DNA of 64,000 bases. Origin: a virus. The stretch lies in the IMG/VR virus record IMGVR_UViG_3300042691_038490, positions 1-64,000 of that record. The stretch is one strand, 5' to 3'. Under the pieces are notes generated by a model that saw nothing but the letters and a program-made list of their open reading frames with translations, had not been told where the DNA came from and made no database searches. A program made the translations under genes and the position numbers. Of this stretch, positions 7,442 to 57,706 are shown in pieces (the stretch's first letter is position 1; each line of letters begins with the position of its first letter).

Positions 7442-7816
7442 TTAGAACATGGTTACTTCTGGACTTACTATAAATTTACCTCTTAACAATTTAATACTAT
7501 TTCCTGTTGGTACTCCGTATGGATATCTTTCTATGTCATATACAAATGTTCCAACAGGAACACTTGCCATTGTATAAGAATCTACATTTATATTAATAAT
7601 ACCAGAAGGATAATATGATCCATTAATTCCAGAATAAATTGTTGGACGAAGATTAACTAGAATTTGCTGATCACCAGTATATCCATATGCATATTTTACT
7701 ACTCCTCTAACATCATAACCACTAAGATTAATAGGATTACTAGATTGGTCCTTTATCTTAAGAGTAATTTGAAGATTATCGCCTTGAATTGTACTTATAT
7801 TATATGAACTTGCCAT
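7442..7816 (-). CDS. Virion structural protein (fibre/baseplate adaptor-like Ig-fold)
   Basis: QGD...PINLSGY...GTFVYDIE...LLRGKFIVSPEVT pattern, common in phage tail modules. Confidence 0.55.
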   Translation of the reverse strand: MASSYNISTIQGDNLQITLKIKDQSSNPINLSGYDVRGVVKYAYGYTGDQQILVNLRPTIYSGINGSYYPSGIININVDSYTMASVPVGTFVYDIERYPYGVPTGNSIKLLRGKFIVSPEVTMF

Positions 7817-7861
7817 ATAATAAATTACACAAAGGATTGAAAAATATTAATAATTAAATTA

Positions 7862-10982: not shown

Positions 10983-11001
10983 TTTTAAATTTCTCCTTAA
11001 A

Positions 11002-11619
11002 TTAGAAGTTGAGTTTGATTAGAGCAACACCATTTACTGGTACGCTAAGTAGTGTGCCAACTTTATTGCTTGGGGTTGCACCACCAGCAGTACTATTGAC
11101 TGTACTTAGTTCACCTGCGTTTAGGTTACTTAGATAAACTCCTGCACCAACTGTTGCAGTATTAGAAATTTCAGTTCCACTATAGACGACTACGCCTTTA
11201 GTTAAAACTGGAACGCCTTGACCACTAACTACTACGTTTTTCTCAGCGGCTTTACGTGGATTGAAAACTAGTTTCTCACCATTTTCGTCTAGCTCTTGAG
11301 TACTGATTAGTGTGATTCCAAGGGCAGCGTCACCAGATGAAGCTGCGCTTACTTTTGATGTTAAAGCATAACGATTGGAAACTGTATTTGCAAAACCAGC
11401 GCCTACTAGACCAGCTAAATCAACTGGTACTGTTCCTAGGAAGCCTGTGCCTCCTGGAGTTGTTGAGGCTACTACTGGTTGAAAACCGTTGCCAATAACT
11501 TTTACTACTGTACCTGCGGTAGCAATAACGCCATTAGCGTCTTGCGCACCATCAAAGGCAAATAGGTTGACTACATCGTGTTCGCTGTAGTCTCTGAATG
11601 GTCTTAGTGTATGTGCCAT
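11002..11619 (-). CDS. Capsid decoration/cement protein
   Basis: Small Ala/Gly/Val-rich protein between scaffold and MCP, with a strong RBS. Confidence 0.65.
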   Translation of the reverse strand: MAHTLRPFRDYSEHDVVNLFAFDGAQDANGVIATAGTVVKVIGNGFQPVVASTTPGGTGFLGTVPVDLAGLVGAGFANTVSNRYALTSKVSAASSGDAALGITLISTQELDENGEKLVFNPRKAAEKNVVVSGQGVPVLTKGVVVYSGTEISNTATVGAGVYLSNLNAGELSTVNSTAGGATPSNKVGTLLSVPVNGVALIKLNF

Positions 11620-19386: not shown

Positions 19387-20727
19387 TTACCATTCAGATA
19401 GAGCTGTTCTAAGCCATTTGGATCCATTGTGAAAGTAAAGATATCTTGAATCTAAAATAAGTTGTCCACTTATACCAGCAGAATTTGATGTTGCTGGTGA
19501 ATTGACTGTATTACGTAATATTATTTTATTTTTAATAAATGTACCGTTAGCAAAATCAAGAGATAAAGTGCATGCACCCGCAGAATTTTTAGCATTAACT
19601 GTTGAATCGCCAATTACTGCTGATCCATCGTGGGTAATATTTATGCATTTTCCACCCAATGCTAAACCATTATTTGCCTGAATCGTATTACATGATCCAC
19701 CCAAAATTGATCCATAGTCTCCTCTGATGATATTATTTGAACCACCAAGAATTGAGGAAAATAGACTTATATTTGCACATTCTCCAACAACATTTGTACC
19801 AACTACACAATTAAATAGTCCATTTAGAACCGTGCTATATTTTGACCAAGAACATTCATCAGATGTTGTGATCCCTATTTTATTTTCAGCTCCACCACCA
19901 ATTAAATTTGATGAGGTATAAGTACCTCTAATTTCATTACATGTTCCATTTAAAATTGTATTACAATATGAATTTATGCAATTAGAACTTCCATTAAGTA
20001 TTGCTGCGCTACTTGATTGATATACGCTATTATTATTTCCATTACCGATAAAAGTATAACTTGAATTAGGCGCAGCTAAATTGAGGCATCCATTTCCAAT
20101 AAAAGCCATACAATTTACAGCTCCTATTTGATTCTCGGCGCCATGCGCAATTACATTCCCACGTCCACAACCTCCACAACAAATATTATTTCTCGTACCA
20201 CCTATGACACTAGAATGTGGTGCATCTACTATATTACAATATCCTCCTCCGACCATTGAGTTAAAACCATTAACATAATTGCATTCTCCGCCAGCAATAA
20301 CTGCTAAATTAGCTGAAGCAACATTTCTATGTCCACCACCGATAAAAGATCTTTGACTTGAATTTGTAACACAATTATAAACTCCTCCGCCAATAAAAGA
20401 AAGATCTGCGCATGTTTGATTTAATTCTCCTCCAACTATTGATGATCCAGAAGCAAATGCACAATTACTTTGTCCACCGACTATTGAAATATGATCACCA
20501 CGTCCACAATTATTTTGTCCACCAAGGATTGATGTATATGATCCAACTATAATATTATTACTTCCACCAACAACGGTAGTATAATTTCCAGATGAAACAT
20601 TATATTTACCACCAACTACTGTTTGTCCGCAGCAAAGAGCAGTGAAATTGAAATTATTTTCAACATATCCTTCTAATGTTCCATCAGAGCGAACACTTCT
20701 AAAAACTACTTCGTTATTTGAGATCAT
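19387..20727 (-). CDS. Cys-rich GGxxN beta-helix tail fibre protein
   Basis: Many I.GG..N repeats; ends with the W.RTALSEW module. Confidence 0.65.
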   Translation of the reverse strand: MISNNEVVFRSVRSDGTLEGYVENNFNFTALCCGQTVVGGKYNVSSGNYTTVVGGSNNIIVGSYTSILGGQNNCGRGDHISIVGGQSNCAFASGSSIVGGELNQTCADLSFIGGGVYNCVTNSSQRSFIGGGHRNVASANLAVIAGGECNYVNGFNSMVGGGYCNIVDAPHSSVIGGTRNNICCGGCGRGNVIAHGAENQIGAVNCMAFIGNGCLNLAAPNSSYTFIGNGNNNSVYQSSSAAILNGSSNCINSYCNTILNGTCNEIRGTYTSSNLIGGGAENKIGITTSDECSWSKYSTVLNGLFNCVVGTNVVGECANISLFSSILGGSNNIIRGDYGSILGGSCNTIQANNGLALGGKCINITHDGSAVIGDSTVNAKNSAGACTLSLDFANGTFIKNKIILRNTVNSPATSNSAGISGQLILDSRYLYFHNGSKWLRTALSEW

Positions 20728-21731
20728 ACAAATGGATACCTCCTAAAATCACCGCCATTATATAAGTAATTAACTTCTTCAGCAGATAGAGCTTTTCTTT
20801 TCCAAAAGCCCATATATTTAACACTTGAACTACTATAGTATTCTGTTAAATTAACAGGAGTACCATTAGTTGAGCCATTTGGACTTGCTCCAATTCCCCA
20901 GCCCTGGTAGCTTGGGTTGTTGTATATTGAGCCTAATTGATAAGCTGCATATGATGTTGATCTCTCTAGTGCGCCATTAATATATAGTTTTATTATTTTG
21001 CTTGTTGCATCATTTGTAGCAACCACTTGTGTAAATGCTGAAGTACTGATTTGTGTATCAGATACAGCCCTTACCCAATTATAATTAAATGGCTGACTAT
21101 GTCTACCCAAAGAGAATGATAAATATGGGCCATACGCCGTATTTGAAGGATTTACAAATTCAAAATGAAAACCTAATTTACCAAATGGATTACCCATTAA
21201 AAATCCATTATTGATTCTTTTCACTTCAAAGCTTATAGAAAAATCTATATTTGAGACACTTGGTTCAATAAGATTTGATGTATAATTTAAGAGACATCCA
21301 TTATAGGATGGATTCGTAAAACCATTTTCTGTACTAAAAGATATTTCAGCAGAGGTAGGATTTTGAAAATTATAAGATCCAATTATATCTTGTGCATCAG
21401 ATATAAAGTTCCACCAATTCGATGGAGTAGGAACAGGGAGTTGAACAGGAGAAACTAGAGGATCTTGAAGACCAGCTCCCCATGAGGCTAGTCTCGCTCT
21501 TACCCAAGTATTTGTATTTATACAATAATAAATATGATGATCATCAAAAGCTATATTACCTTTAGTTCCAAAATCTCCTGTAGTATCTGGAGCAGACACA
21601 ATATTTAAATCTCTATTTAAATTTGGATCTACACTTAGTCTATATCCAGAAACTACAAATTGATTAGTATTATTATCAATAAATAATTGTTTTCCTGGAG
21701 AGTTATAATATATTGAATTAATTGTTGCCAT
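20724..21731 (-). CDS. LamG/concanavalin-like domain virion protein
   Basis: QVVAT....IKLYINGAL and ALSAEEVNYLYN LamG signatures. Confidence 0.7.
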   Translation of the reverse strand: MATINSIYYNSPGKQLFIDNNTNQFVVSGYRLSVDPNLNRDLNIVSAPDTTGDFGTKGNIAFDDHHIYYCINTNTWVRARLASWGAGLQDPLVSPVQLPVPTPSNWWNFISDAQDIIGSYNFQNPTSAEISFSTENGFTNPSYNGCLLNYTSNLIEPSVSNIDFSISFEVKRINNGFLMGNPFGKLGFHFEFVNPSNTAYGPYLSFSLGRHSQPFNYNWVRAVSDTQISTSAFTQVVATNDATSKIIKLYINGALERSTSYAAYQLGSIYNNPSYQGWGIGASPNGSTNGTPVNLTEYYSSSSVKYMGFWKRKALSAEEVNYLYNGGDFRRYPFV

Positions 21732-42975: not shown

Positions 42976-43002
42976 ATAAGTCATTGACTATCAATGAAAT
43001 TT
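42976..43002. repeat. Solo 27-bp palindrome of the phased repeat family
   Basis: ATAAGTCATTGACTATCAATGAAATTT at the start of the early region. Confidence 0.65.
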
Positions 43003-44635: not shown

Positions 44636-44710
44636 GTAAGTTGTTATCCATCAACGACTTACGCAAGGCGGGTCCCTTGCGTCGTAAGTCGTTATCAATC
44701 AACGAGAAAT
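44636..44710. repeat. Phased 75-bp element R1
   Basis: GTAAGTTGTTATCCATCAACGACTTAC + 21 nt + GTAAGTCGTTATCAATCAACGAGAAAT. Confidence 0.9.
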
Positions 44711-44779
44711 AAATGAAGAAATTTCTTGCAAAAAATGAAAAATGTGATAGATTATAAGTAGAAAGAAAGAAGAAAAAAA

Positions 44780-44926
44780 ATGAAAACAAAAATCAAAATC
44801 AAATTCGACCTCAACGAAACAATTCGCCGCTTGGAAGAAATCTCCAAGGGCTATCAAGAATCCGCAAAACGGATGGAAAAAATCATCGTCAAAATGGACG
44901 AAATCAAAACTCTTAAGAAAGGATAA
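44780..44926 (+). CDS. Small coiled-coil protein (48 aa; not in ORF track)
   Basis: MKTKIKIKFDLNETIRRLEEI...; paralog of 43053..43226. Confidence 0.75.
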   Translation: MKTKIKIKFDLNETIRRLEEISKGYQESAKRMEKIIVKMDEIKTLKKG

Positions 44927-44933
44927 TAAAACA

Positions 44934-45134
44934 ATGATAACAATAAATCCAGAACTATACGAAAACAAAAACATATTCCGATATGGTAACGAAAAGCTAC
45001 TCGTGAAGGTGTTCCCTTCCACGATTGGATATAAAACAATGAGTGCAACCGCTGAAATCCTCGAAGGTGAGGACAAGGGTAAGTGGACAACCATTTATCT
45101 TCGCAAAGGTTTGTATCCCGTTGATGCTCAATAA
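44934..45134 (+). CDS. Hypothetical protein
   Basis: 66-aa ORF in early operon. Confidence 0.6.
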   Translation: MITINPELYENKNIFRYGNEKLLVKVFPSTIGYKTMSATAEILEGEDKGKWTTIYLRKGLYPVDAQ

Positions 45135-45178
45135 GAAATAAAGTTTGACAAAATAGAAAAATCTGATAGGATAAAAAT

Positions 45179-45472
45179 ATGAAAGATAAGAACAAAGCAA
45201 TCAAACCAGAAATCGGAACCTTCTACCTCTTGACCTACGACAAGACGAAGCATCCTTGGCTCCCTACCGAAGAAGTCCTCTTTGTGAAGGATAACGAAAC
45301 CTTCATCAAAATCAGCATCAGCCAAGGTGCTGGTTTTAGCTCTCGTTGGGATTGGGCAACCGAAAAAGCGGTGACCATTACCAAGCTCGCAAAAAATCAG
45401 CAGCTTGTGGACAAACTCAACCTCTCGGTAGAAATTGGCAGAGACATCGCCAAGGCCGAACTTGGAAAATAA
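45179..45472 (+). CDS. Hypothetical protein
   Basis: ATG follows a TTGACA-N17-TAGGAT promoter. Confidence 0.65.
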   Translation: MKDKNKAIKPEIGTFYLLTYDKTKHPWLPTEEVLFVKDNETFIKISISQGAGFSSRWDWATEKAVTITKLAKNQQLVDKLNLSVEIGRDIAKAELGK

Positions 45473-45607
45473 AATGAAAAAAATCCTTTTCAAAATAAAT
45501 AAAAAAACTTACAGGCTCGCCGTGAAAAATGGTGAAGAAAAAAACTTTCTGCGAGAGAGATTTTTCTACTATGTTTCTGCGAGTTGCTTGCATCTTCGAG
45601 ACCTGCT

Positions 45608-45682
45608 CTAAGTAACTCAGCATCAACGAGTTACGCTCGCAGGGAGGCCGATCCCATAAATGCTTAATAATCAATGCTTTAT
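45608..45682. repeat. Phased 75-bp element R2
   Basis: ...ATCAACGAGTTAC + GCTCGCAGGGAGGCCGATCCC (21 nt) + ATAAATGCTTAATAATCAATGCTTTAT. Confidence 0.85.
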
Positions 45683-45767
45683 AAATTCATGATCTTAGAC
45701 TAAAACCTGATGAAATGCTTAAAATCAAAAACGATCTTTGAACAAAACCTAATGGAAGGCAAAAAAT

Positions 45768-45842
45768 CTAAAGTCTTGAGTATCAAAGACTTACGCAACC
45801 AACTCCCCCGCGCGCGCAAACCCTTGACTATCAACAACTTGC
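45768..45842. repeat. Phased 75-bp element R3
   Basis: CTAAAGTCTTGAGTATCAAAGACTTAC + 21 nt + GCAAACCCTTGACTATCAACAACTTGC. Confidence 0.9.
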
Positions 45843-45881
45843 AACGCTTGACAAAACAAAAATCTCTGATATCCTCTTTTT

Positions 45882-46244
45882 ATGCAAAACAAAATAAAAA
45901 TATTTAGCGAACCCTTTGGCCCTAACCTCGCCTATTTGATAGAAGCTGATTTCCTATCTGCTGAAAGATTTTATAATGCAATTTACAATTTCGGTGGGAC
46001 GAATTACAAATTGCAAGATCGTGGAAGTGGGAAAGCATTTTACTTTTATGCAGAGCCAGCGAAGTTTCGCAGAGCTTTAGCTCTCGCTCTCTCAAACAAT
46101 CTTGAATCATCTTTTGGTGATGGCAACTGGGACTCTCACGGAGAAGCCCTAGCAGACCAAATCATTTCAGAAATAAAACCATCATCTTTTGTAAGGCGTT
46201 CAGTATCAACAGAATATTCTTGCAGAAAATCTTTGACAGAATAG
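45882..46244 (+). CDS. Hypothetical protein, three-member paralog family
   Basis: FYNAIYNFGGTN...GKAFYFYAEP similar to 43266..43685. Confidence 0.7.
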   Translation: MQNKIKIFSEPFGPNLAYLIEADFLSAERFYNAIYNFGGTNYKLQDRGSGKAFYFYAEPAKFRRALALALSNNLESSFGDGNWDSHGEALADQIISEIKPSSFVRRSVSTEYSCRKSLTE

Positions 46245-46266
46245 TAATCTGTGATACATTAGTCGT

Positions 46267-46434
46267 ATGAACAACAACGACATCTCATACCTCGCCTCGA
46301 TTAACTGCACCGAAGCCTTTGCTGATGCGGAGGCTTTCTTCGACTACATCAATTCCCCTGATGTAATCAACGAAATGCTGGATAAGATGGCTCCCAGCTT
46401 CGATGAAGCTGATACCATCGTGGAGGTCAAATAA
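46267..46434 (+). CDS. Small acidic protein (55 aa; not in ORF track)
   Basis: MNNNDISYLASINCTEAFADAEAFFDY...; ATG follows a TTGACA-N17-TACATT promoter. Confidence 0.65.
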   Translation: MNNNDISYLASINCTEAFADAEAFFDYINSPDVINEMLDKMAPSFDEADTIVEVK

Positions 46435-46435
46435 T

Positions 46436-46705
46436 ATGGACTACAAAGCCTCTCTCAAGGAGTGGATGAGCCAGCATATGCTGGGCGCTCAGGATGTGCG
46501 TGACATCCTCAATGAGATGCGTGAGGATGATCGCCTCGCTCTCTCTAAATCGTCAGATCTTTCTGATGTGGACGATTCGATGGATGGCGACTTTGATTCT
46601 GCTATGGCATCGGCTGGCCATGGCACAGACGAAGACTATGGTGGCGGGTGCTATCAGATGGAAGACTTCGGCTGGGCTGGTGACGAAAACTTCTGTGGAG
46701 AATAA
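46436..46705 (+). CDS. Small acidic protein
   Basis: Likely start MDYKASL; D/E-rich C-terminus (DDSMDGDFDSAMASAGHGTDEDY). Confidence 0.65.
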   Translation: MDYKASLKEWMSQHMLGAQDVRDILNEMREDDRLALSKSSDLSDVDDSMDGDFDSAMASAGHGTDEDYGGGCYQMEDFGWAGDENFCGE

Positions 46706-46816
46706 TTATGATTGAAAAATATATACTCGCAATCGCTGGGCCTGGAATTTTTTTCCTTGCTCTCGCAACATTAGAAACTCTTATCAACTTTGCTGTCTGG
46801 TTTTGGGAGCAAAAAC

Positions 46817-46891
46817 ATAAGTAGTTAACTATCAACGAGTTACGTCGGCGGGGCCTCGCCTTACGTAACTACTTGATAATCAAAGACTTCT
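46817..46891. repeat. Phased 75-bp element R4
   Basis: ATAAGTAGTTAACTATCAACGAGTTAC + 21 nt + GTAACTACTTGATAATCAAAGACTTCT. Confidence 0.9.
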
Positions 46892-46896
46892 AAAGC

Positions 46897-47046
46897 TTAC
46901 ATACTAGCTCGCCAACCTTCAAAATCTTCTTCCATCTCTCTTTGCCATTGAACAAAATTTTTGTTTGCATCTAGTGGAGGATTTTCAGTATCAGTCCACG
47001 GATAAAAAGTTTCTAAGTTTTCGTCTAGTAGTTTTTCAATGTTCAT
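46897..47046 (-). CDS. Small acidic protein (49 aa; not in ORF track)
   Basis: MNIEKLLDENLETFYPW...EMEEDFEGWRASM. Confidence 0.5.
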   Translation of the reverse strand: MNIEKLLDENLETFYPWTDTENPPLDANKNFVQWQREMEEDFEGWRASM

Positions 47047-47108
47047 AAAAATAAAATTCCTAAAATAATTCCAAGTAAAATTAAGATAATTGTTTCCATT
47101 GGGACATC

Positions 47109-47744
47109 TTAATGCTTTTTGTAGTTAATTGCAAACTGATTTTTGTCCCAGCACGCACGACAATCAGCACACTTGTTGCCTTGTTTAGAGCTAGGGCAAT
47201 TAAAGTTTCCAACCTTGCTTGCACCGCTAACGCACAAACCAAGGCGTTGAGCGATACCAACAGGAGCAGGGCCATCCATCATAAGAGCAGAGAGACGAAT
47301 AGTTAAATTGGAAGGCACTTCTCCGCCTTTCTCAATATACTCTGAAACGAAAGCATACTCCCGAGTTGGCAACCAAAAGGAAATATGCGGAAGGTTTTTA
47401 GCAACCTGCACAATCTTTTGAAGATGCCATACGCCTTGGATGTCTCCCGAATCATGCCATCTGAAATGGGGGTTTTTAACTTTGCCGATCAAATAGGACA
47501 TAGCCTCAACCCAAAGATCATTGGTAAGAGAAGCAAAACGCTTTTCCATCGCCTCTTGAACATTCTTAAAAACATAACGCCCTTTGAGAGCATAGCAGAA
47601 CGCACAAATACTTCCTGCAACCTTACGCATTTTTTGCCCGATAAGACAACGCTTTGCTGGCGTTGAGTAGGCATAACCTGGCATCTTCGAAGGTTTAGAT
47701 AGTGTGCCGACAATAGCTTCGGCTTGCTTTTTGTTTTTGAACAT
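47109..47744 (-). CDS. Gene product 88-like (radical-SAM-like Cys cluster) protein
   Basis: SKMPG...C..G...C..CYA.KG.Y, FRWHDSGD, WLPTRE and C..CRACW. Confidence 0.75.
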   Translation of the reverse strand: MFKNKKQAEAIVGTLSKPSKMPGYAYSTPAKRCLIGQKMRKVAGSICAFCYALKGRYVFKNVQEAMEKRFASLTNDLWVEAMSYLIGKVKNPHFRWHDSGDIQGVWHLQKIVQVAKNLPHISFWLPTREYAFVSEYIEKGGEVPSNLTIRLSALMMDGPAPVGIAQRLGLCVSGASKVGNFNCPSSKQGNKCADCRACWDKNQFAINYKKH

Positions 47745-47793
47745 AAAATAAATCTAACATAATTTTTTCTTGTGACAAGTTTTTTTTACAGTT

Positions 47794-47868
47794 AAATCTC
47801 GTTGAATATCAATGACTTACAACCGCAGGGAGGTCGCCTCTGTAAGTCGTTAATGCTTAAGCAGTTGC
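47794..47868. repeat. Phased 75-bp element R5
   Basis: TCGTTGAATATCAATGACTTAC + AACCGCAGGGAGGTCGCCTCT (21 nt) + GTAAGTCGTTAA; the outer arm overlaps the ardC stop. Confidence 0.85.
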
Positions 47869-48693
47869 AGTTTCTGCTTCTGGAATCTCTTCGCTTTCTT
47901 TTTTACCAATGAAAGCGTCAAATCTTTTTTGAGCTTTACTAGAAGCTGAAATAATAAAATTCATATCCTTTTTTAATACTTGGAGCCAACTAGAAAGATA
48001 ACTCGCAGAATTGTTAAAACATTTTTCAGAATCAATTCCGCAGAAGTTAAGACAGAGACTAGCAAAAATCTCTGCGGTCAATTCTTCTTTGCTATAATTC
48101 TGTGAACCAAATCCGTTCTTCACTTCATCATTAGTCGCCTTGTGCATAGCGTGACCAATCTCGTGAAACGCAGTGGAGTAATACTCCTCAACGCTGTTGA
48201 AGTTTTCTTTTGGAGGAAGGTCGATCTTATGTTCCTGCGGATAATAACAGGCACGACTTCCGCCGTGCTTAATCTTAATAATGCACTTGTTAATCAACTT
48301 CTCTGCTTCTTCTACTGGAGAAAAATCGAGTTTCTTAACTTCGGGTTGTTTCCACTTGATGTTCTCGACATCACTTAACCCAAAAACTTTGTAATATCTC
48401 ATCATAGGAAACCCAGTGCTTTCGTCATCTTTGTTTTTTAGGAGCTTGTAATAAACTACCAGATGAGCTTTGGCACCTTTCTTGATGTTTCCGCCAAGTT
48501 CTTTGATCTGGTTAAAGGTAAAGAAAAAGTCATCAGAGGAAACCATACGAAGCAAAAATTGGTTTATGCCCCTATAATTCTTTTTTGAAATGCCGTTGCA
48601 AAGATCAAAAACTTTCCAAGGCTTCTGCCAAGGGCAAGTTCCATTGTTGAGGGCTTCGATGAATTTTTCAGTGATAATTTCGTTTACTTTCAT
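47857..48693 (-). CDS. ardC: ArdC-family antirestriction protein (ssDNA-binding + zincin domain)
   Basis: PWQKPW, YRGIN, TFNQ...GG.IKKG, YYSTAFHEIGH, YSKEELTAE and SASYLSSW. Confidence 0.9.
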   Translation of the reverse strand: MKVNEIITEKFIEALNNGTCPWQKPWKVFDLCNGISKKNYRGINQFLLRMVSSDDFFFTFNQIKELGGNIKKGAKAHLVVYYKLLKNKDDESTGFPMMRYYKVFGLSDVENIKWKQPEVKKLDFSPVEEAEKLINKCIIKIKHGGSRACYYPQEHKIDLPPKENFNSVEEYYSTAFHEIGHAMHKATNDEVKNGFGSQNYSKEELTAEIFASLCLNFCGIDSEKCFNNSASYLSSWLQVLKKDMNFIISASSKAQKRFDAFIGKKESEEIPEAETATA

Positions 48694-48732
48694 AGCTTAA
48701 ATATATCACTTTTTTTCTTTTTGTCTACAAAT

Positions 48733-48807
48733 AAATCTCATTCACCATCAACAACTTACAACTGCAGGGAGGTTGCCTTTGTAACTCTCTAATAATCAAT
48801 AGAATAA
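48733..48807. repeat. Phased 75-bp element R6
   Basis: ATCAACAACTTAC + AACTGCAGGGAGGTTGCCTTT (21 nt) + GTAACTCTCTAATAATCAAT. Confidence 0.85.
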
Positions 48808-49003
48808 AAATGTTGACATAAAACAAAAATATGATAATCTATAAAAAGAAAAGAGGTAATAAAATGATGCACGATATATTTGATGACGAAATAACCTTGA
48901 AAATCTGGGCTAAAAAAATGCTCGATGATCAAGCTATGGAAAGAGCATTAGAGACTCAAGCAGAACTCGATGCTGACCATATGCGTGATATGGGCGAGAG
49001 TTA

Positions 49004-49078
49004 ATAACTCGCTCATTATCAATAACTTATAACCGCAGGGAGGTCGCTTGCGTAAACCTTTGATAATCAAGTGCTTAG
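49004..49078. repeat. Phased 75-bp element R7 (abuts tRNA-Glu 3' end)
   Basis: ATAACTCGCTCATTATCAATAACTTAT + 21 nt + GTAAACCTTTGATAATCAAGTGCTTAG. Confidence 0.85.
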
Positions 49079-49147
49079 GGCTAAACGGATTCGAACCGAT
49101 ACACCCTCATTGAAAGCGAGGAGTCCTAACCATTAGACGATAGCCCC
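49076..49147 (-). tRNA. tRNA-Glu(TTC)
   Basis: Cloverleaf GGGGCTA...CCTCG-CT-TTC-AA-TGAGG...GGTTCGAATCC. Confidence 0.85.
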
Positions 49148-49239
49148 AAAATATAGTATTTAACTTATTATATTAGGTATTTTTGTATTTATCAATTAGT
49201 ATTTGCTATTTAGTGTAATCTCTTTTAGAATTGTATTAG

Positions 49240-49443
49240 ATGAAAAGCAAAACTGAGATGGATCAAGTATTCAAAAACTCAAAGTTATATCAAGAATTCC
49301 TCAAAGAGCGTGAGGAAATATTAAAACACAAATGGCTTGAAAGCGAGAAAGCTGGTAAGGATGTAGGATTCGAATGGGCACTTCTTGATTGGAACTTTCA
49401 TCACCGCACAGGTTGGAAAAGCGAACACAGTAATTTCTTCTAA
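49240..49443 (+). CDS. DUF4032-like small protein
   Basis: EREEILKHKWLESEKAGKDVGFEWALLDW; GTGTAA motif upstream. Confidence 0.7.
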   Translation: MKSKTEMDQVFKNSKLYQEFLKEREEILKHKWLESEKAGKDVGFEWALLDWNFHHRTGWKSEHSNFF

Positions 49444-49618
49444 AAAATTTTAGCTCTTCCGCTCTCTCTATTCTAGAACTAGAGAAAATATAATACCCAC
49501 CTTTACCTGCCTCAGACTCTGGGCATTGGGGCTTCAAGGGCTCTTAATGGGAGAGTCACTCCACACCTTGCGGAAAGAACTATAGTTATCTTACCATACT
49601 TTTGTTTTAGTGCAATAA

Positions 49619-49650
49619 AAAAGGCGAGATTTTTTAGGTCTCGCCCTTTC
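49619..49650 (-). terminator. Rho-independent terminator
   Basis: GGCGAGA/TCTCGCC stem with flanking A/T tracts. Confidence 0.65.
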
Positions 49651-49670
49651 TATAAATAATCTCTCTGTTT

Positions 49671-49931
49671 TTAGACTGGCGAGAGACCTCCAGCAATCCG
49701 ATCATAACGGAACTGACGATGTCCGAATCCGTCACGACCAGAGAAGCACCAAGAGATGAAAAGCTTTTTTCCAGCCTTGGAAATATAATGAGTGGTAGGA
49801 ACGCCAACGATGTAAGTATAAGTCTCGGTTCCATTGTAAGGCTTATAGTTGATGATATACCGCTGTCCTAGCACGAACCAGAACAGACCCTTAATCATCT
49901 CCCACAGGGTGATGTTGTTTTGTTTCTTCAT
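49671..49931 (-). CDS. Hypothetical protein
   Basis: 86-aa ORF between element R8 and a terminator. Confidence 0.6.
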   Translation of the reverse strand: MKKQNNITLWEMIKGLFWFVLGQRYIINYKPYNGTETYTYIVGVPTTHYISKAGKKLFISWCFSGRDGFGHRQFRYDRIAGGLSPV

Positions 49932-49970
49932 TTAATAATCATACCATAACTTCATTTTTCTGCAAGAAAA

Positions 49971-50045
49971 GAATCTCGTTGATAGTCAATGACTTACGCG
50001 GCGAAAGTCCCCGCCGCTGTAACTACTTAATACTCAACAACTTAT
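49971..50045. repeat. Phased 75-bp element R8
   Basis: TCGTTGATAGTCAATGACTTAC + GCGGCGAAAGTCCCCGCCGCT (21 nt) + GTAACTACTTAATACTCAACAACTTAT. Confidence 0.9.
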
Positions 50046-50444
50046 AAAAATTAAATTATTCTTCTGATTCTTTCCAATTAGGATGCGCTTTAGCCCATTT
50101 AACAAAAACAACTTCGAGCTCTGCTAAGTACTTATCTATTTGAGATATGAGTTTAGGATCTTCATCCTTGAGGATTCTTTTTTCTAGTATTTTACTGATC
50201 CTATTTTCACTTTTCATATATAGTATTTTACAGTGCAGTGAGAAATAATTCAATTATTATTTTTGGGATAAGTGATTTTAGGAAAAAATTATTTTAAATG
50301 TGTAATTATAATTTTCGCTAACTCGATTATTGCTCCCCACGAAATACTTCCCACCATCATTAAAATAAAAATCCAAATAAAATTCTTTTCGTACCATCTC
50401 ACATAAAATGTTTACATAAGAAAAAATCTTTTGGGAAAAATTCT

Positions 50445-50518
50445 CGCTTTCAGCAGGGATCGAACCTGCAACCTACGGATTAGAAATCCGTTGCTCTATC
50501 CAATTGAGCTATGAAAGC
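50445..50518 (-). tRNA. tRNA-Arg(TCT)
   Basis: ACGGA-TT-TCT-AA-TCCGT anticodon arm; canonical D and T loops. Confidence 0.9.
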
Positions 50519-50524
50519 GATATG

Positions 50525-50597
50525 TCGCCTAGGTCGGACTCGAACCGACACTCGAACGATTTTAAGTCGTTTGTCTCTGCCATTGGACTACTAGGCG
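50525..50597 (-). tRNA. tRNA-Leu(TAA), short variable region
   Basis: AACGA-CT-TAA-AA-TCGTT anticodon arm; GGTTCGAGTCC. Confidence 0.85.
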
Positions 50598-50603
50598 GAT
50601 CTT

Positions 50604-50999
50604 TTAGCTGTCAGTATCTAACTTTTCAGCCGAAACTTGTCCGAGAGAATAAGTAGGCTCAATCTGTGCTGTGCGAACAAAATTCTCAACAGGAATCTTG
50701 CTGATAGTATTCTTAACTCGATTCATAACAACCTGCTTCATTCCACCTTTTAGTCCAGTAAACTTTTTACCAAACTTATCTGTCATACCATTCATAACAT
50801 ACTTAAACATCACACGCTCTAACTTCTCAAGGGTAATCCAGAAATAAGCAAAGTCATCTGCCATCCATTGAAGTTCACCATTAGTGCCGCCCCAATTATA
50901 GACGCGATTATGAAATTGCTCGATGCGGTCTTTAGAACCTTTAATTCCAATAACCCAATTTGCTCCGAGGTTTTGTTTGAATAATTTGATTTGTCTCAT
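50604..50999 (-). CDS. Hypothetical protein, three-member paralog family
   Basis: IEQFHNRVYNWGGTNGEL similar to 43266..43685. Confidence 0.7.
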   Translation of the reverse strand: MRQIKLFKQNLGANWVIGIKGSKDRIEQFHNRVYNWGGTNGELQWMADDFAYFWITLEKLERVMFKYVMNGMTDKFGKKFTGLKGGMKQVVMNRVKNTISKIPVENFVRTAQIEPTYSLGQVSAEKLDTDS

Positions 51000-51055
51000 A
51001 GTTTTTTTAGTTTAACAGGGTTTGATTTTTTGTCAAGGGTTTTGTTGAAATTTTT

Positions 51056-51127
51056 TGGACCGCGTAGGACTCGAACCTACAACCAATTGGTTAAAAGCCA
51101 ACTGCTCTACCATTGAGCTAGCAGTCC
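51056..51127 (-). tRNA. tRNA-Lys(TTT)
   Basis: GTTGG-CT-TTT-AA-CCAAT arm; canonical cloverleaf. Confidence 0.9.
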
Positions 51128-51135
51128 GAAAATCT

Positions 51136-51208
51136 TGGGCATACTAGGATTCGAACCTAGGACCAAGGCATTATGAGTGCCCTGCTCTAACCGCTGAGCT
51201 ATACGCCC
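51136..51208 (-). tRNA. tRNA-CAT (probably Ile2, lysidine type; Met not excluded)
   Basis: GGGCA-CT-CAT-AA-TGCCT arm with G1-C72 pair. Confidence 0.85.
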
Positions 51209-51214
51209 AATACT

Positions 51215-51427
51215 TTAACCAGAGCAAATCTCCGTAGGAAATTCGCTAGGTTCGGGAACTAGCTTAAAGGCAACATTAAAAGCCTTGCTGATCCTATAAA
51301 GATCCTGCAAGGAATAAGTGTTCTGCCTTGCTGCTTCTCTGATTCTGCTGTCCATAATATAAGCCCTACGCTCACCAAAGATAACTCTGGTGTAGTAAGG
51401 TGTCCATTGAGGTGTTTTGTTTGTCAT
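51215..51427 (-). CDS. Hypothetical protein
   Basis: Start moved to MTNK, after a TTGACT-N17-TATATT promoter. Confidence 0.55.
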   Translation of the reverse strand: MTNKTPQWTPYYTRVIFGERRAYIMDSRIREAARQNTYSLQDLYRISKAFNVAFKLVPEPSEFPTEICSG

Positions 51428-51505
51428 AGGTTTAATATACAATAGTTTGATAAATAGTCAATAAAAATAATTGGTTAAACATCAAGAGTTTACATATAAT
51501 AAGAT

Positions 51506-51599
51506 TGGTACGAGGGGCAGGATTCGAACCTGCATTTTGCCCAAATCTAGAGCGACCACATTATAAGTGTGGGGTCTTAACCAGTTAGACGACCCTCGC
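51506..51599 (-). tRNA. tRNA-Ile(TAT) with long variable arm and encoded CCA
   Basis: GCGAGGG/CCCTCGT acceptor stem, CCACA-CT-TAT-AA-TGTGG arm, ~22-nt variable region. Confidence 0.8.
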
Positions 51600-51798
51600 A
51601 TCAGCTCCGTAGCTAGTATCGGCCTCCGCTTTTAGGCTTTTCTATCCGAGCCAATCTTTTTAATCACGACCTTCGTGCCGTCTGGCCATGCACGGATAAC
51701 CTTTTTCCAAAAGTCAGCCTCTGCTTCAGCTTCTTTTAGATCGGTGTGCATATCCTCGCTAACACGAATCCCATCACGCAAAACGATATATCTTACAT

Positions 51799-52029
51799 TC
51801 ATTCTTCTACCTCCGCAACGATTTCGTTGTCAAATAATGAGCCACCATCAACCTTGTCGCAAATAACGATGTCATTACTGCCATCATCACCAGCATACAC
51901 GGCACGAAGTTTCCTTACTTGACTATATTCTTTTTTAGTCCATTGACTCTCTGGAACGCCAAGGACTTGCAGAGCCTCGACTCTCTCTGGAGGGATCGCC
52001 TCACCACTTACTGCACAATGATAGGTCAT
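51799..52029 (-). CDS. Hypothetical protein (DksA/TraR zinc-finger-like remnant)
   Basis: C..SGEAIPPERVEAL motif. Confidence 0.55.
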   Translation of the reverse strand: MTYHCAVSGEAIPPERVEALQVLGVPESQWTKKEYSQVRKLRAVYAGDDGSNDIVICDKVDGGSLFDNEIVAEVEE

Positions 52030-52060
52030 AGTTGTGATTGTAATATGTTTTTATATTCTG

Positions 52061-52420
52061 TCAAGCAATTTTGCGGGGACGGCCTCGACCACGCTTTTCA
52101 CCACTAGGCAGAATAGATGTTGCATTGTAGTTTGTTAGTTTCTCCTGCAAATAATCAAAACGCTTGTTAGCATCCTCGATTGAATTGCAAGTGAAAGCCC
52201 AATCACCCCATTGACTATCGCTAGGATACATTTCTGCTGGGGGCATCTTTACCCCTGCGATCTCATATCCATTGTGCTTTTTGATAGCAATAACTTCATA
52301 ATGATAGTTTTCACTTTCGGGGTCATCTAATTGCTTTTTGTAAATAGCGATGTCACCATCACGCTTTACCTGCTGAAGTTTGAATCCCTTGCTAGTAAAA
52401 GATTCTTCAAGAATTTTCAA
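52061..52420 (-). CDS. Hypothetical protein with C-terminal AT-hook
   Basis: YEVI...EMYPSDSQWG..AFT, ending KRGRGRPRK. Confidence 0.65.
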   Translation of the reverse strand: MKILEESFTSKGFKLQQVKRDGDIAIYKKQLDDPESENYHYEVIAIKKHNGYEIAGVKMPPAEMYPSDSQWGDWAFTCNSIEDANKRFDYLQEKLTNYNATSILPSGEKRGRGRPRKIA

Positions 52421-52587
52421 TCTTCACTCCTTCTGGAAGCCAGCCTTTAGGGTCAAGGTTTTCACCCATATAGCCGACTTGAGTTTCTTGTTTAGTTTTA
52501 GGGTCAATAGAAAAGAGAGCATAGCCACCTTCAGCCAGCTTCTTTACTTTAGTGATGTTCATATGATAATTATAGTATGCTTTTAGA

Positions 52588-52929
52588 TTAATTCAAGACA
52601 AAAATATCACGACCAATAACACCTGCCCACTTTGCTTTATATACAGGCTTTTTAGTATCAGAATAAACAAAGCTCTTATACTTATAAGGATTGTAAGTCA
52701 CCTTGCGTTCTAGTTGATCAATAGGCCATCCTTCATCCCTATGCCCACAAACAAATGCGTGAACATTCTTACGCTTCTCTCTAAGAACCCTGGAGCGACC
52801 TGCTTGACTCACTCGAAATTCTACATCTTTCAAAAAGAACTCTGAACTATGCTCTAATACTTTTCCTTTGAGCATAATGCTTAAACAATGTTTATGTAAA
52901 TTGTAATAGACTTTGTGTTTTGCTTTCAC
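52588..52929 (-). CDS. Conserved phage hypothetical protein
   Basis: VYYNLHK...FRVSQAGR.RVLREKRKNVHAFV...YNPYK family. Confidence 0.7.
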   Translation of the reverse strand: MKAKHKVYYNLHKHCLSIMLKGKVLEHSSEFFLKDVEFRVSQAGRSRVLREKRKNVHAFVCGHRDEGWPIDQLERKVTYNPYKYKSFVYSDTKKPVYKAKWAGVIGRDIFVLN

Positions 52930-52969
52930 TCCCTTAACTATAAGATAAATTCTAAAAATGTCAAGAGAT

Positions 52970-53044
52970 ATAAGTGCTTGATAATCAAAGAGTTACGCAA
53001 GCCGAGCCCCCGCATGCGTAAATCCTTGGTAGTCAATGACTTAT
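52970..53044. repeat. Phased 75-bp element R9
   Basis: ATAAGTGCTTGATAATCAAAGAGTTAC + 21 nt + GTAAATCCTTGGTAGTCAATGACTTAT. Confidence 0.9.
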
Positions 53045-53062
53045 AATCCATCAAATCTAAGC

Positions 53063-53091
53063 AAAAAAATGCGAGGGGGTTTGCCCCTCGC
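53063..53091 (-). terminator. Rho-independent terminator after DUF932 gene
   Basis: GCGAGGGG/CCCCTCGC stem plus T7 tract on the minus strand. Confidence 0.8.
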
Positions 53092-53114
53092 ACTTGTTAA
53101 GGTTTCGTTTTAGT

Positions 53115-53972
53115 TTAGGCGACCAGTTTCAAGAGGTCTTCGTCACGAGTTTTGCCCGAGAAGACTTTGAGTAGGTCACGGTTGACTCGCTCGCTGTACT
53201 CGTAGCGCTCTTGCGAGACATTGCGAGTAAGGAATTGCGTTGCCGCATTGTAGAGGTTGTACAGATTGCGATCCGTATCCTCCTCGTACTGCGGATTGCG
53301 CCAAACAGCCTCGATCCCTTCGCGCACCTTGCCAGAGATAACGTCTTTCTCTTCCAGCTTGGTGAGCAGGTTCAAGCCCTGTTCGTCAGTGAGCGCCCGT
53401 TGCGCCAGTTTGTTGAAAACTTGCGCTTGAGACTCAACGCTATCACACGCACGAGCCAACGCATCACCAACAAAGTCCAGATTGACCGCAAGCGTGTGGC
53501 GCTTAGTCATGCTGAACTCCTTGGAGAGCGAGGTCATGCCGTTGGTGCAAACGAGACGCAGGAAGCCTAGGGACAACGAAACACGGCAGGAGCGGTCATA
53601 ACTATTGTTAACGACCAGTCGCAAGCCGAGAATGTCACCCTTGGCGCGCTTGCCCATGGGCTTCAACTCCGTTTTGAAATCGGGGAAGTCATAGGAAGCG
53701 TAGAAGCGAGAACCGTCACGCACAACAAACTTCTTCGAATTGTAATTCGAGAGCTTGCCATGAGTGGCGAGGTTGCTTTCCACCATCTCGATGAGGTCTG
53801 CATTCTTCACCACACCATACTGCTCGGTGCAAACTCCGAGCGTAATGGGTTCGGCGGTGTCACGGCGCACCATGCCGAAGTATCCTGTCCTCTTGCCGTC
53901 AGTTGTGAGGAGTGGCTCTTGATGTACATCAAAATCGTATACATCTTGAGCGGGTTTGGTTGTTCTAGCCAT
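53115..53972 (-). CDS. DUF932/DUF945-family protein
   Basis: LGVC..QY.VVKN, NSYDRS, GFLRLVCTNGM, KRHT and NLYNLYNAATQ. Confidence 0.8.
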   Translation of the reverse strand: MARTTKPAQDVYDFDVHQEPLLTTDGKRTGYFGMVRRDTAEPITLGVCTEQYGVVKNADLIEMVESNLATHGKLSNYNSKKFVVRDGSRFYASYDFPDFKTELKPMGKRAKGDILGLRLVVNNSYDRSCRVSLSLGFLRLVCTNGMTSLSKEFSMTKRHTLAVNLDFVGDALARACDSVESQAQVFNKLAQRALTDEQGLNLLTKLEEKDVISGKVREGIEAVWRNPQYEEDTDRNLYNLYNAATQFLTRNVSQERYEYSERVNRDLLKVFSGKTRDEDLLKLVA

Positions 53973-54070
53973 AGATTAATAGTACCACACTTTTATAATC
54001 TGACAAGATTTTTTTTCATGTCAGAAGATAATGGCCTTAAAGGTTTTACGTAATGTGAATAACTTTTTTT

Positions 54071-54145
54071 AAAAGGTGTTGAATATCAACGACTTACGCG
54101 CGCGGGGGGCGCGCCCCTATAACTCCTTAATAATAAGCAACTTAC
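54071..54145. repeat. Phased 75-bp element R10
   Basis: TGTTGAATATCAACGACTTAC + GCGCGCGGGGGGCGCGCCCCT (21 nt) + ATAACTCCTTAATAATAAGCAACTTAC. Confidence 0.9.
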
Positions 54146-57416: not shown

Positions 57417-57706
57417 AATTATATATTAATTGTTTTTTTATTTTTCGTCAAGTTTTTTTTCTACATCACCCACTCCCAATAGATCGCCAAGCAAAGCCCC
57501 GAAAAAATTAAAACAATCTCCATATGATAAATTTTTCTCCATTTCTTTTTTGCTCATACAAGTATTATACATCAAATACAATATTTTGTAGAACAGTTTT
57601 TTTTAAAACAGCGGAAGTTTTTCGATACTTCCAAACGATTCACTTATTACGGAAGTGACCACCGATGACCTCACCATCACCTCACACAACAAATCTAAAT
57701 GAGAGT

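What the first reader, a model, noticed from the sequence alone, without database searches (positions are those of the whole stretch)
44636..54145. Array of ten strictly phased 75-bp double-palindrome elements partitioning the early region
Seen: ten intergenic elements start at 44636, 45608, 45768, 46817, 47794, 48733, 49004, 49971, 52970 and 54071. Each is a 27-bp imperfect palindrome (consensus GTAAGTCGTTGATAATCAACGACTTAC), a GC-rich spacer and a second 27-bp palindrome. The spacer is exactly 21 bp in all ten copies although its sequence varies; four share GCAGGGAGG and some form hairpins. Solo arms occur at 42976 and 51467. Known: the half-sites match or approach the E. coli IHF consensus WATCAANNNNTTR (e.g. 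TATCAACGACTTA, AATCAAAGAGTTA), and 21 bp is about two helical turns. Inference: length conservation with sequence drift points to a geometry-constrained nucleoprotein site. Two candidate roles are a host IHF/HU-type folding scaffold for the first-injected or anti-defence DNA, or recombination sites bounding self-contained promoter+gene cassettes. I noticed no copies outside 43-54 kb and no recombinase in the window.
Basis: partly seen in the sequence, partly recalled or inferred. Interest (0 to 1): 0.92.

Follow-up and report, generated by a model that had tools for sequence, protein, structure and literature searches.

The report
Paired-palindrome boundary modules between phage cassettes
An uncultured ~170-kb lake phage separates the small genes of its early accessory island with ten 75-bp units, each two protein-site palindromes around a GC-rich core; the core length is uniform within each phage genome but differs between genomes, and the same palindrome also occurs in bacterial chromosomes.

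Summary
All ten 75-bp elements lie at the stated coordinates, each with a 21-bp spacer, and none lies elsewhere on the 94.9-kb contig. This scan has already found the same family on related phage DNA.

The four 13-bp arms per element show no compensatory changes. They therefore look like independent protein half-sites (ATCAAnnAnTTAC), not a maintained hairpin.

The elements sit between gene cassettes that relatives have shuffled. Where a sigma-70-type promoter follows, its -35 starts 5-6 or 15 nt beyond the element.

- Spacer length is set per genome. It ranges from 19 to 28 bp across dozens of uncultured phages, and 91% of elements match their own genome's mode, against 60% after shuffling.
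- Orthologous spacers differ by different small indels that add up to the same net change.
- The single 27-bp palindrome also occurs in bacterial chromosomes (Fibrobacter, Bacteroidota, Verrucomicrobiota). One MAG carries 1,237 copies, and many copies lie 2-14 nt after tRNA genes.
- The complete relative encodes no HU/IHF, integrase or resolvase. No RAYT link was found.

Best reading: protein-bound boundary and promoter-register modules, probably using a host factor, that also serve as recombination joints. The binding protein and the cause of the length rule remain unknown.

The parts
44636..44710 (.). element 1 (27-bp palindrome, 21-bp GC-rich spacer, 27-bp palindrome); + strand gene region
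45608..45682 (.). element 2; spacer carries GCAGGGAGG; left member of the pair flanking the 85-bp 'empty' cassette
45768..45842 (.). element 3; spacer motif in the opposite orientation; right member of the pair
46817..46891 (.). element 4, at the point where + strand and - strand genes converge; no promoter on either side
47794..47868 (.). element 5, between the ArdC-like gene (whose stop codon lies in the outer arm) and the GP88-family gene
48733..48807 (.). element 6; divergent promoter-like sites 5 nt from both ends
49004..49078 (.). element 7; abuts the 3' end of tRNA-Glu (49075-49148, - strand)
49971..50045 (.). element 8; spacer is a near-perfect GC hairpin; its ortholog keeps 21 bp in L009, where the other nine spacers are 24 bp
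52970..53044 (.). element 9, between the terminator of the DUF932 gene and the next - strand promoter
54071..54145 (.). element 10
42976..43002 (.). solo 27-bp palindrome at the divergence point, 16 nt before the -35-like hexamer of the first + strand leaderless gene (ATG 43053)
51467..51493 (.). weak solo palindrome 12 nt beyond the 3' end of tRNA-Ile (51506-51599, - strand), the same arrangement as in bacterial chromosomes
53063..53093 (-). canonical intrinsic terminator (GC hairpin plus U-run) of the DUF932 gene, separate from and just upstream of element 9
   Evidence: sequence read directly
52937..52964 (-). sigma-70-type promoter (TTGACA-16-TATAGT); its -35 starts 5 nt beyond element 9
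47751..47778 (-). sigma-70-type promoter (TTGTCA-16-TGtTAGATT); its -35 starts 15 nt beyond element 5; ATG of the GP88 gene lies 6 nt after the -10 (leaderless)
45848..45875 (+). sigma-70-type promoter (TTGACA-16-TATCCT); its -35 starts 5 nt beyond element 3; ATG at 45882

Best explanation
Each element is a protein-bound boundary module between independent early transcription units.

Shown:
- Each 27-bp palindrome consists of two independently conserved 13-bp half-sites, as expected for a dimeric DNA-binding protein.
- The elements lie between the 3' end of one cassette and the sigma-70-type, mostly leaderless promoter of the next. The -35 starts 5-6 or 15 nt beyond the outer arm, one helical turn apart.
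- Relatives have swapped, gained and lost whole cassettes with the elements as joints.
- Spacer length is uniform within a genome and differs between genomes.

Inferred:
- The bound palindromes insulate neighbouring units from read-through or supercoiling, and they set or shut off the adjacent promoter.
- The binding protein is probably host-encoded, because the same palindrome is scattered through bacterial chromosomes that lack the phage island genes.
- The 72%-GC core is a length-constrained linker. Its length must either fit a second factor or match the other elements of the same genome.
- Cassette shuffling is a by-product of about 75 bp of shared homology acted on by general recombination.
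For: Arms and conservation:
- No covariation appears between any pair of arms in 184 unique elements. Observed complementarity is at or below expectation.
- Half-site information is 10.5-18.9 bits.

Promoter register:
- In the 21-bp class the offsets are 40 at 5-6 nt and 19 at 15 nt, out of 62.
- Random positions give a flat distribution.

Cassettes and distribution:
- Segments between elements cluster as whole units with changing neighbours.
- The elements are conserved in 27 related loci. In the complete 172-kb relative they are confined to one GC-richer 10-kb island.

Genome-specific spacer length:
- 90.9% of elements sit at their locus mode, against 60% (maximum 64.6%) in shuffles, with modes from 17 to 28 bp.
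- Orthologous spacers differ by different indels with the same net change.

Host side:
- The genome scan gave 119 exact bacterial hits (my own rough estimate of the chance expectation is about 1).
- Copy numbers are 1,237, 105, 22, 13 and 6 per genome, against 0-3 for the reversed control.
- One copy lies upstream of a TTGACA-17-TATAAT near-leaderless gene in Akkermansia.

Other:
- A separate canonical terminator lies next to element 9, so that element is not needed there as an intrinsic terminator.
- No phage HU/IHF, integrase or resolvase was found.
Against: - No binding protein has been identified. The IHF resemblance is a consensus match only.
- My recollection of IHF geometry (kinks 9 bp apart) may not fit a TTGAT-N-ATCAA core.
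- Only about a third of elements have a high-scoring promoter beside them. Element 4, at the convergent junction, has none.
- Other promoters in the island lack elements, so the element is not required for promoter function.
- Only 9 of 81 sampled Verrucomicrobiota genomes carry the palindrome. That sporadic pattern is odd for a universal host factor.
- No protein in the 20-kb loci tracks the spacer class.
- In bacteria many perfect copies are followed by T-runs and sit after tRNA genes. There they could act as RNA terminator hairpins.
Confidence: 0.45

Rival explanations
1. The elements are PeSL-type composite terminator/promoter cassettes. On this reading the element matters mainly as RNA (stem-loops that stop or stabilise upstream transcripts) together with the adjacent early promoter. 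Its conservation would then simply provide homology for recombination that shuffles ORFans.
For: - GC-rich polyG/polyC cores lie next to sigma-70 promoters in a hyperplastic island, as described for PeSLs.
- Cassettes are shuffled among relatives.
- Linkage to the left and right cassettes decays gradually across the element, as expected for homologous exchange.
- Perfect bacterial copies followed by T-runs after tRNA genes look like terminators.
Against: - No compensatory changes occur in any arm pair.
- Spacer hairpins are barely better than shuffles.
- No U-tract follows the core.
- A separate canonical terminator sits beside element 9.
- RNA folding does not explain the conserved half-site sequence across phages of 31-49% GC and several bacterial phyla, nor the genome-specific spacer length.
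Confidence: 0.15
2. The elements are sites for site-specific recombination or transposition. Cassettes would be mobile units bounded by GTAAG.../...CTTAC inverted ends. The inner arms plus spacer would be the junction between neighbouring units, moved by an unrecognised recombinase, in an integron-like or MITE-like manner.
For: - Cassettes behave as discrete units. An 85-bp 'empty' unit between two oppositely oriented elements appears next to at least ten different neighbours.
- The inner arms, next to the spacer, are the best-conserved part.
- A fixed-length, variable-sequence spacer recalls recombination signal architectures.
- In one Bacteroidota MAG the palindrome rides inside MITE-like repeats at more than 1,200 copies.
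Against: - No tyrosine or serine recombinase is encoded in the complete relative.
- Y1 transposase genes in palindrome-rich genomes are not flanked by palindromes.
- There is no sharp crossover point.
- There is no attC-style covariation.
- Orthologous elements persist at the same positions across relatives.
Confidence: 0.12
3. The elements pair with one another. A bridging protein would synapse the left and right palindromes of different elements and loop each cassette out as its own domain. The only constraint would then be that all spacers in one genome match each other, so the common length is free to drift between genomes.
For: - Length is uniform within genomes but is not fixed across genomes that share an unchanged half-site consensus.
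- Mixed arrays differ by only 1 bp (23/24, 27/28, 20/21/22).
- No locus protein tracks the spacer class.
- Centre-to-centre distances of 46-55 bp share no helical phase, which argues against one rigid protein contacting both palindromes of a single element.
Against: - This is pure inference, with no bridging protein known.
- The 21-bp exception in L009 and the mosaic locus L018 show that mismatched elements are tolerated.
- The promoter register concerns only the proximal palindrome.
Confidence: 0.13
4. The elements are topoisomerase (gyrase-type) or decoy sites. An AT-rich, GC-core, AT-rich unit placed between strongly transcribed units would recruit a type II topoisomerase. Alternatively it would titrate an abundant host DNA-binding protein.
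For: - The symmetric AT/GC/AT layout and the intergenic position between strong promoters resemble REP/BIME behaviour as I recall it (established knowledge of E. coli BIME-2 and gyrase, not tested here).
- Many half-sites per genome lie within an anti-defence-like island.
Against: - Nothing tested here supports this reading.
- The conserved 13-bp half-sites are far more specific than known gyrase preferences.
- The length rule is not explained.
Confidence: 0.05

Closest known systems
PeSL (promoter-early stem-loop) cassettes of T4-type phages (PMC2839356, PMC4122927)
   Same: Both are short conserved intergenic motifs in a hyperplastic island of small accessory genes. Both combine a sigma-70-type early promoter with a G/C-tract core. 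Both are the places where close relatives differ by insertion, deletion or replacement of ORFan cassettes. In neither case is a dedicated recombinase encoded.
   Different: PeSLs are defined by the promoter plus one terminator stem-loop. Here the conserved part is two 27-bp palindromes made of four protein-type half-sites, with no covariation. The promoter lies outside the element and is often absent. The core is a poor hairpin. Core length is fixed per genome. This phage has no cultured relative, and its terminase is about 25% identical to the best cultured hits.
REP/BIME and RIP elements of E. coli, and Correia elements of Neisseria (recalled knowledge)
   Same: All are dispersed intergenic palindromic units, paired at fixed distances through defined linkers. 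Some carry IHF sites, some act at 3' ends of genes, and some are carried by MITEs. The 1,237 copies in one Bacteroidota MAG are REP-like in number.
   Different: No Y1/RAYT association was found. The same palindrome is shared across phyla and phages, whereas REP families are species-specific. In these elements the AT-rich protein sites flank a GC core, the reverse of the RIP layout.
E. coli IHF binding site WATCAANNNNTTR
   Same: Each half-site, together with the central base, fits all nine specified positions of the consensus. Two such half-sites share the central W, as a symmetric site for a homodimer would.
   Different: Binding has not been tested. The likely hosts are not enterobacteria. 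Position 8 (A) is also conserved. From memory, the two ATCAA blocks may lie about 2 bp closer together than a symmetrised IHF site would place them. TTGAT-N-ATCAA cores are also used by unrelated regulators, for example the streptococcal FabT box that turned up.
Dispersed operators of global phage or plasmid repressors (L5 stoperators, P1 C1 operators, RK2 KorB sites; recalled knowledge)
   Same: In each case ten or more copies of one protein site sit in short intergenic regions beside promoters. The site acts on initiation or as an elongation roadblock.
   Different: Those sites are single. They are bound by a known element-encoded repressor and are not found in host chromosomes. No candidate repressor was identified here.

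Membership tests
PeSL | A sigma-70 early promoter is part of the repeated motif | tested here: inconclusive
   A promoter lies 5-6 or 15 nt outside the element in roughly one third of copies at a strict threshold. It is absent at the convergent element 46817.
PeSL | A stable stem-loop acts as a terminator | tested here: not met
   Spacer MFE is -5.7 against -4.9 kcal/mol for shuffles. The arms show no covariation. No U-tract follows. A separate canonical terminator lies beside element 9.
PeSL | Indels and replacements between close relatives have their breakpoints at the motifs | tested here: met
   Cassette clustering and decay of flank linkage across the element.
PeSL | Mini-circles form by exchange between flanking motifs | not testable with these tools
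   This needs inverse PCR or read mapping from infected cells.
REP/REPIN (RAYT-mobilised) | A cognate Y1 (RAYT) transposase gene flanked by the repeats | tested here: not met
   PF01797 genes in G006, G007 and G008 have no palindromes within about 1.5 kb. G004 and G005 have palindromes but no PF01797.
Integron attC | Structure conserved through compensatory changes while the sequence is free; IntI integrase nearby | tested here: not met
   The sequence is conserved with no covariation. There is no PF00589 in the contig or in the complete relative.
IHF binding site | Match to WATCAANNNNTTR | tested here: met
   Consensus A|ATCAA|CGAC|TTA in all four arm positions.
IHF binding site | Bound and bent by an IHF/HU-family protein | not testable with these tools
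   No PF00216 gene is present in the phage contig or in the complete relative. Binding by host protein needs EMSA or footprinting.
CRISPR mini-array (repeat-spacer-repeat) | Direct repeats flanking spacers that match foreign DNA; repeats matching a host CRISPR array | tested here: not met
   Spacers are 72% GC, share motifs and are orthologous between relatives. The repeat occurs dispersed at up to 1,237 copies per bacterial genome, not in arrays. There is no Rfam hit.
Intrinsic terminator | GC-rich hairpin followed by a U-tract | tested here: not met
   In the phage elements no T-run follows the core or the palindromes. Some bacterial solo copies do carry T-runs.

The most novel reading that the evidence does not exclude
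The 27-bp palindrome is the cognate site of an uncharacterised DNA-binding factor used by bacteria of several phyla, by their MITEs and by many uncultured phages. In phages, pairs of these sites around a GC core form a boundary or insulator system. The core length is a genome-specific setting, kept uniform either by co-evolution with a second factor or by the need for elements of one genome to pair with each other.
Probability: 0.3. Interest if true: 0.85.

Novelty: new variant of a known kind. Interest (0 to 1): 0.7.

Why it matters
If the modules are protein-bound boundaries, they would be a compact, portable way for phages to run many small anti-defence or takeover genes as insulated, separately promoted units, and to exchange those units. 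That bears on how accessory islands evolve.

The genome-specific spacer length is a rare natural experiment. Dozens of sites in one genome change length together while their sequences stay orthologous. This makes the existence of a molecular ruler, or of element-to-element pairing, directly testable.

The same palindrome in bacterial chromosomes, after tRNA genes, upstream of promoters and inside high-copy MITEs, points to a DNA-binding factor or signal that my full-text searches did not find described.

Tried and rejected
- **RNA or DNA hairpin maintained by pairing.** Rejected for the phage elements, because no covariation appears in any arm pair. There are also no Rfam hits.
- **REP/RAYT.** Rejected.
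- **DUF932 as the binding protein or ruler.** It is the neighbour shared most widely (16 of 30 contigs). However, it is near-identical between the window (21-bp spacers) and L009 (24 bp), and it is absent from palindrome-rich bacterial genomes.
- **Search for a locus-encoded ruler.** No protein cluster sets all four non-21 genomes apart.
- **Integrated-element boundary as the explanation for palindromes next to tRNA genes.** Only 1 of 10 neighbouring ORFs tested was an integrase.
- **Genes beside the Fibrobacter sites.** Ten ORFs gave no Pfam hit, so this was uninformative.
- **Phage-encoded HU/IHF, tyrosine recombinase or serine recombinase.** None found.
- **CRISPR-like mini-array.** Rejected (see the membership test).
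- **Cultured relatives or annotated phages with arrays.** None found.
- **Literature searches for the motif.** These returned only a primer and unrelated FabT boxes.
- **Exact 27-mer consensus search.** No hit within 3 mismatches, so the consensus is idealised.


Full report
**Setting**

The window is the first 64 kb of a 94,859-bp IMG/VR virus contig, estimated 58% complete. It has no near relative among deposited phages. Its terminase is only about 25% identical to the best cultured hits.

Genes run on the - strand up to 42.4 kb, on the + strand from 42.4 to 46.8 kb, and on the - strand again from 46.9 kb.

The 42-54 kb stretch is GC-richer (38-44%) than the rest (28-33%). It holds seven tRNA genes nearby. 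It encodes small proteins typical of conjugative leading regions or anti-defence islands:
- an ArdC-like protein (ArdcN plus zincin domain);
- a DUF932 protein;
- a DUF3846 protein;
- a GP88-family protein;
- an L5 gp82-like protein;
- a cell-wall hydrolase.

Many of these genes start 6-8 nt after an extended -10 (TGnTAnnnT) that is preceded by a TTGACA-like -35. They therefore look like leaderless units with their own host-type promoters.

**The observation**

Each contains four 13-bp half-sites in alternating orientation, with consensus ATCAACGACTTAC.

A PWM scan of the whole contig with any spacer from 5 to 44 bp returns the ten elements at spacer 21. It adds only two weak pairs at other spacers, and nothing lies outside 44.6-54.2 kb.

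In the window, the inner arm on the + strand side is the stronger of the two in all ten copies, whatever the gene orientation. In the pooled set the corresponding arm is stronger in 126 of 184 elements and the opposite arm in 36.

The 'solo arms' are weaker whole palindromes. The literal 27-mer consensus has no match within three mismatches.

**Relatives**

The ArdC-like protein recovered 27 related loci from IMG/VR contigs of up to 172 kb. All of them carry 3-15 elements.

In the 100%-complete relative the nine elements are confined to one 10-kb, GC-richer island at 125.9-135.3 kb.

Look-ups of earlier notes show that this scan has flagged and followed up the same family in several related genomes, with similar readings. 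I treated those notes as leads only.

**Structure or protein site?**

I pooled 184 unique elements and compared observed arm-to-arm complementarity with shuffles, which tests for a maintained hairpin.

| Arm pair | Observed matches of 13 | Expected |
|---|---|---|
| inner-inner | 9.28 | 9.47 |
| outer-left / inner-left | 8.07 | 8.17 |
| inner-right / outer-right | 7.88 | 7.97 |
| outer-outer | 6.93 | 7.33 |

In every pairing that would form a hairpin stem the observed value is at or below expectation.

Information is concentrated at positions 2, 4, 5, 8 and 10-13, and positions 6, 7 and 9 are free. The arms are therefore independent copies of a consensus, as for protein half-sites, and not a stem kept by compensation.

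Spacers are 72% GC. They fold only slightly better than shuffles, -5.7 against -4.9 kcal/mol. Rfam has nothing on the elements.

In the 21-bp class the spacer often carries GCAGGGAGG at offset 5 from one arm, in either orientation, and more often next to the stronger arm (99 against 46 elements).

**Relation to transcription units**

Where a high-scoring sigma-70-type promoter adjoins an element, the distance from the outer-arm end to the -35 is quantised.
- In the 21-bp class it is 5-6 nt in 40 cases and 15 nt in 19 cases, out of 62.
- Random positions give a flat distribution.
- This places the proximal palindrome centre near -53 or -63.

Further observations on individual elements:
- Element 48733 has such promoters on both sides.
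- Element 46817, at the convergent junction, has none.
- Element 52970 is preceded by a canonical hairpin-plus-U terminator, so that element is not the terminator there.
- The stop codon of the ArdC-like gene lies inside an outer arm.

**Cassettes**

I cut the loci at the elements and clustered the segments at 70% or more mutual coverage. This yields discrete units.
- The ArdC and GP88 units are universal.
- Units 3 and 9 alternate at one position.
- Units 6, 10, 11, 14, 18, 21 and 24 come and go with different neighbours.
- An 85-bp 'empty' unit flanked by two oppositely oriented elements (window 45608/45768) appears beside many different units.

Pairs of elements that share only the left flank, or only the right flank, lose similarity gradually across the element. 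The switch is centred on the spacer and is not a sharp point.

The complete relative encodes no tyrosine or serine recombinase. General homologous recombination is the simplest agent of the shuffling.

Within the window's own phage group most genomes use 21 bp. Four do not:

| Locus | Spacer lengths |
|---|---|
| L009 | 24 bp in 9 of 10 elements |
| L014 | 22 bp in 6 of 6 |
| L035 | 23 bp in 7 of 7 |
| L018 | 20 bp in 6 of 9 |

A pattern scan of IMG/VR found further array-bearing contigs of other phage groups (37-49% GC). They share the same half-site consensus, but each has its own length: 19, 23, 23/24, 25, 26 or 27/28 bp. Spacers within one genome often also share a GC-rich motif specific to that genome.

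Over 44 loci with three or more elements, 90.9% of elements sit at their locus mode. Shuffling gives 60%, with a maximum of 64.6% in 2,000 shuffles. Relatedness inflates this statistic, but four independent departures occur inside one close group.

L009 is the window's closest relative.
- Island proteins are 90-99.5% identical, and nucleotide identity is 80-91%.
- Its orthologous spacers align with the window's and differ by different small indels that each sum to +3. The same holds for L014, L035 and L018 against 21-bp relatives.
- This argues for selection on total length, not copying from a master element.

L018 is a mosaic. Its two 21-bp elements and their flanks are identical to those of L017.

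No protein in the 20-kb loci distinguishes all four non-21 genomes. DUF932 is not the ruler. The window and L009 do differ in tail-fibre genes, so a host-encoded cause is possible.

Centre-to-centre distances of 46-55 bp share no helical phase.

I see three possible causes and cannot separate them:
- a co-evolving second factor that reads the core;
- a host difference;
- a requirement that the elements of one genome match each other because they pair.

One scan of species-representative genomes for TAASTCRTTGANNNTCAAYGASTTA gave 119 loci. My own rough calculation puts the chance expectation at about one hit. The hits include:
- about 35 Fibrobacter species, at several orthologous intergenic sites;
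- many Bacteroidota;
- Verrucomicrobiota and Lentisphaeria;
- a few Proteobacteria.

Allowing three mismatches, copy numbers per genome are as follows. Reversed-pattern controls gave 0-3 in every genome.

| Genome | Copies |
|---|---|
| Microscillaceae MAG | 1,237 |
| Lentisphaeria MAG | 105 |
| Akkermansia | 22 |
| Cytophagaceae | 13 |
| Fibrobacter | 6 |

The distribution is sporadic. Only 9 of 81 sampled Verrucomicrobiota genomes have a copy within two mismatches.

In the Microscillaceae genome the copies lie in intergenic DNA, some inside larger MITE-like repeats. Their arms show only weak covariation, z = 3.7.

Eleven of 123 bacterial copies lie 2-14 nt after a tRNA or tmRNA 3' end, often followed by a T-run. 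The window repeats this arrangement at 51467 (tRNA-Ile) and at 49004 (tRNA-Glu).

One Akkermansia copy lies about 55 bp upstream of a TTGACA-17-TATAAT promoter. That promoter drives a near-leaderless gene that I judged by eye, from its N-terminal residues, to be arginyl-tRNA synthetase-like. This is the same promoter style as in the phage.

Neighbouring genes are mostly ordinary. Only one of ten tested was an integrase. Y1 transposases are not associated with the palindrome. DUF932 is absent from the palindrome-rich genomes.

The site is therefore not private to the phage. A host-encoded reader, or a signal shared by many mobile elements, is the most economical inference.

**Comparison with known systems**

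In evolutionary behaviour the closest described system is the PeSL of T4-type phages. The anatomy differs, however:
- the units are paired protein-type palindromes;
- the promoter lies outside the unit;
- the core is a poor hairpin;
- core length is set per genome.

REP/BIME, RIP and Correia elements are the nearest bacterial analogues, but the RAYT test failed.

The IHF consensus match is exact on paper, but binding is untested.

My full-text searches for the motif found no description of it.

**Verdict**

The finding is real, conserved and far beyond chance. The roles in injection or DNA folding, and in site-specific recombination, are not supported.

I file it as a new variant of the known class of intergenic regulatory and boundary repeats. 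Two features are unexplained and open to direct testing: the per-genome spacer length, and the phage-bacterium sharing of the palindrome.

Noticed in passing
window 43053, 44100, 45179, 45882, 46267 (+) and 47744, 48693, 49931, 53972, 54601 (-): Start codons lie 6-8 nt after an extended -10 (TGnTAnnnT) that has a TTGACA-like -35. Most island genes therefore look like leaderless mRNAs with their own host-type promoters.
   Followed up: partly
G006 (Microscillaceae MAG), e.g. L295:1880-2060 and L299:1880-2060: The palindrome occurs 1,237 times (up to 3 mismatches) in one 6.8-Mb genome. Part of these copies lie inside MITE-like units with CAGCAATTCCCACTATGG-type inverted ends that carry two palindromes 94 bp apart.
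   Followed up: partly
L168, L175, L201, L206, L246, L249, L263, L265, L271, L278, L280: Perfect copies of the palindrome sit 2-14 nt after tRNA or tmRNA 3' ends in bacteria of several phyla. Most are followed by T-runs, so they look like terminators but have a conserved sequence.
   Followed up: partly
L233:3067-3175 (Akkermansia muciniphila MAG): A palindrome copy, followed by a second unrelated palindrome (ATGTTCCACATGGAACAT), lies upstream of TTGACA-17-TATAAT. The ATG of what looks by eye like an arginyl-tRNA synthetase gene follows 9 nt after the -10.
   Followed up: no
L018:1-5000 versus L017: The left part of L018, including two 21-bp elements and their flanks, is 100% identical to L017, while the rest carries 20-bp elements. 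This indicates a recent recombinant between lineages with different spacer settings.
   Followed up: partly
window 5738-9388 and 19387-21731 versus G002: Tail-fibre and neighbouring structural genes are replaced or only 28-45% identical between the window and its closest relative. The island proteins of the same two genomes are 90-99.5% identical, which suggests different hosts.
   Followed up: no
L139:8093-8200 and 10948-11060: Some phages of the 23-bp class carry three palindromes in a row, with spacers of 23 and 16 bp.
   Followed up: no
G008:C51 and G008:C39 (Cytophagaceae), L313 and L314: Chromosomal DUF932 genes lie within 1-2.5 kb of degenerate palindrome copies. This hints at integrated elements with the same kind of island.
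   Followed up: no
window 47763-47787, 53991-54015, 57436-57460: A short hairpin (CTTGTgaCAAG-like) flanked by T-runs on both sides recurs three times (repeat family D9). It may be a weak bidirectional terminator.
   Followed up: no
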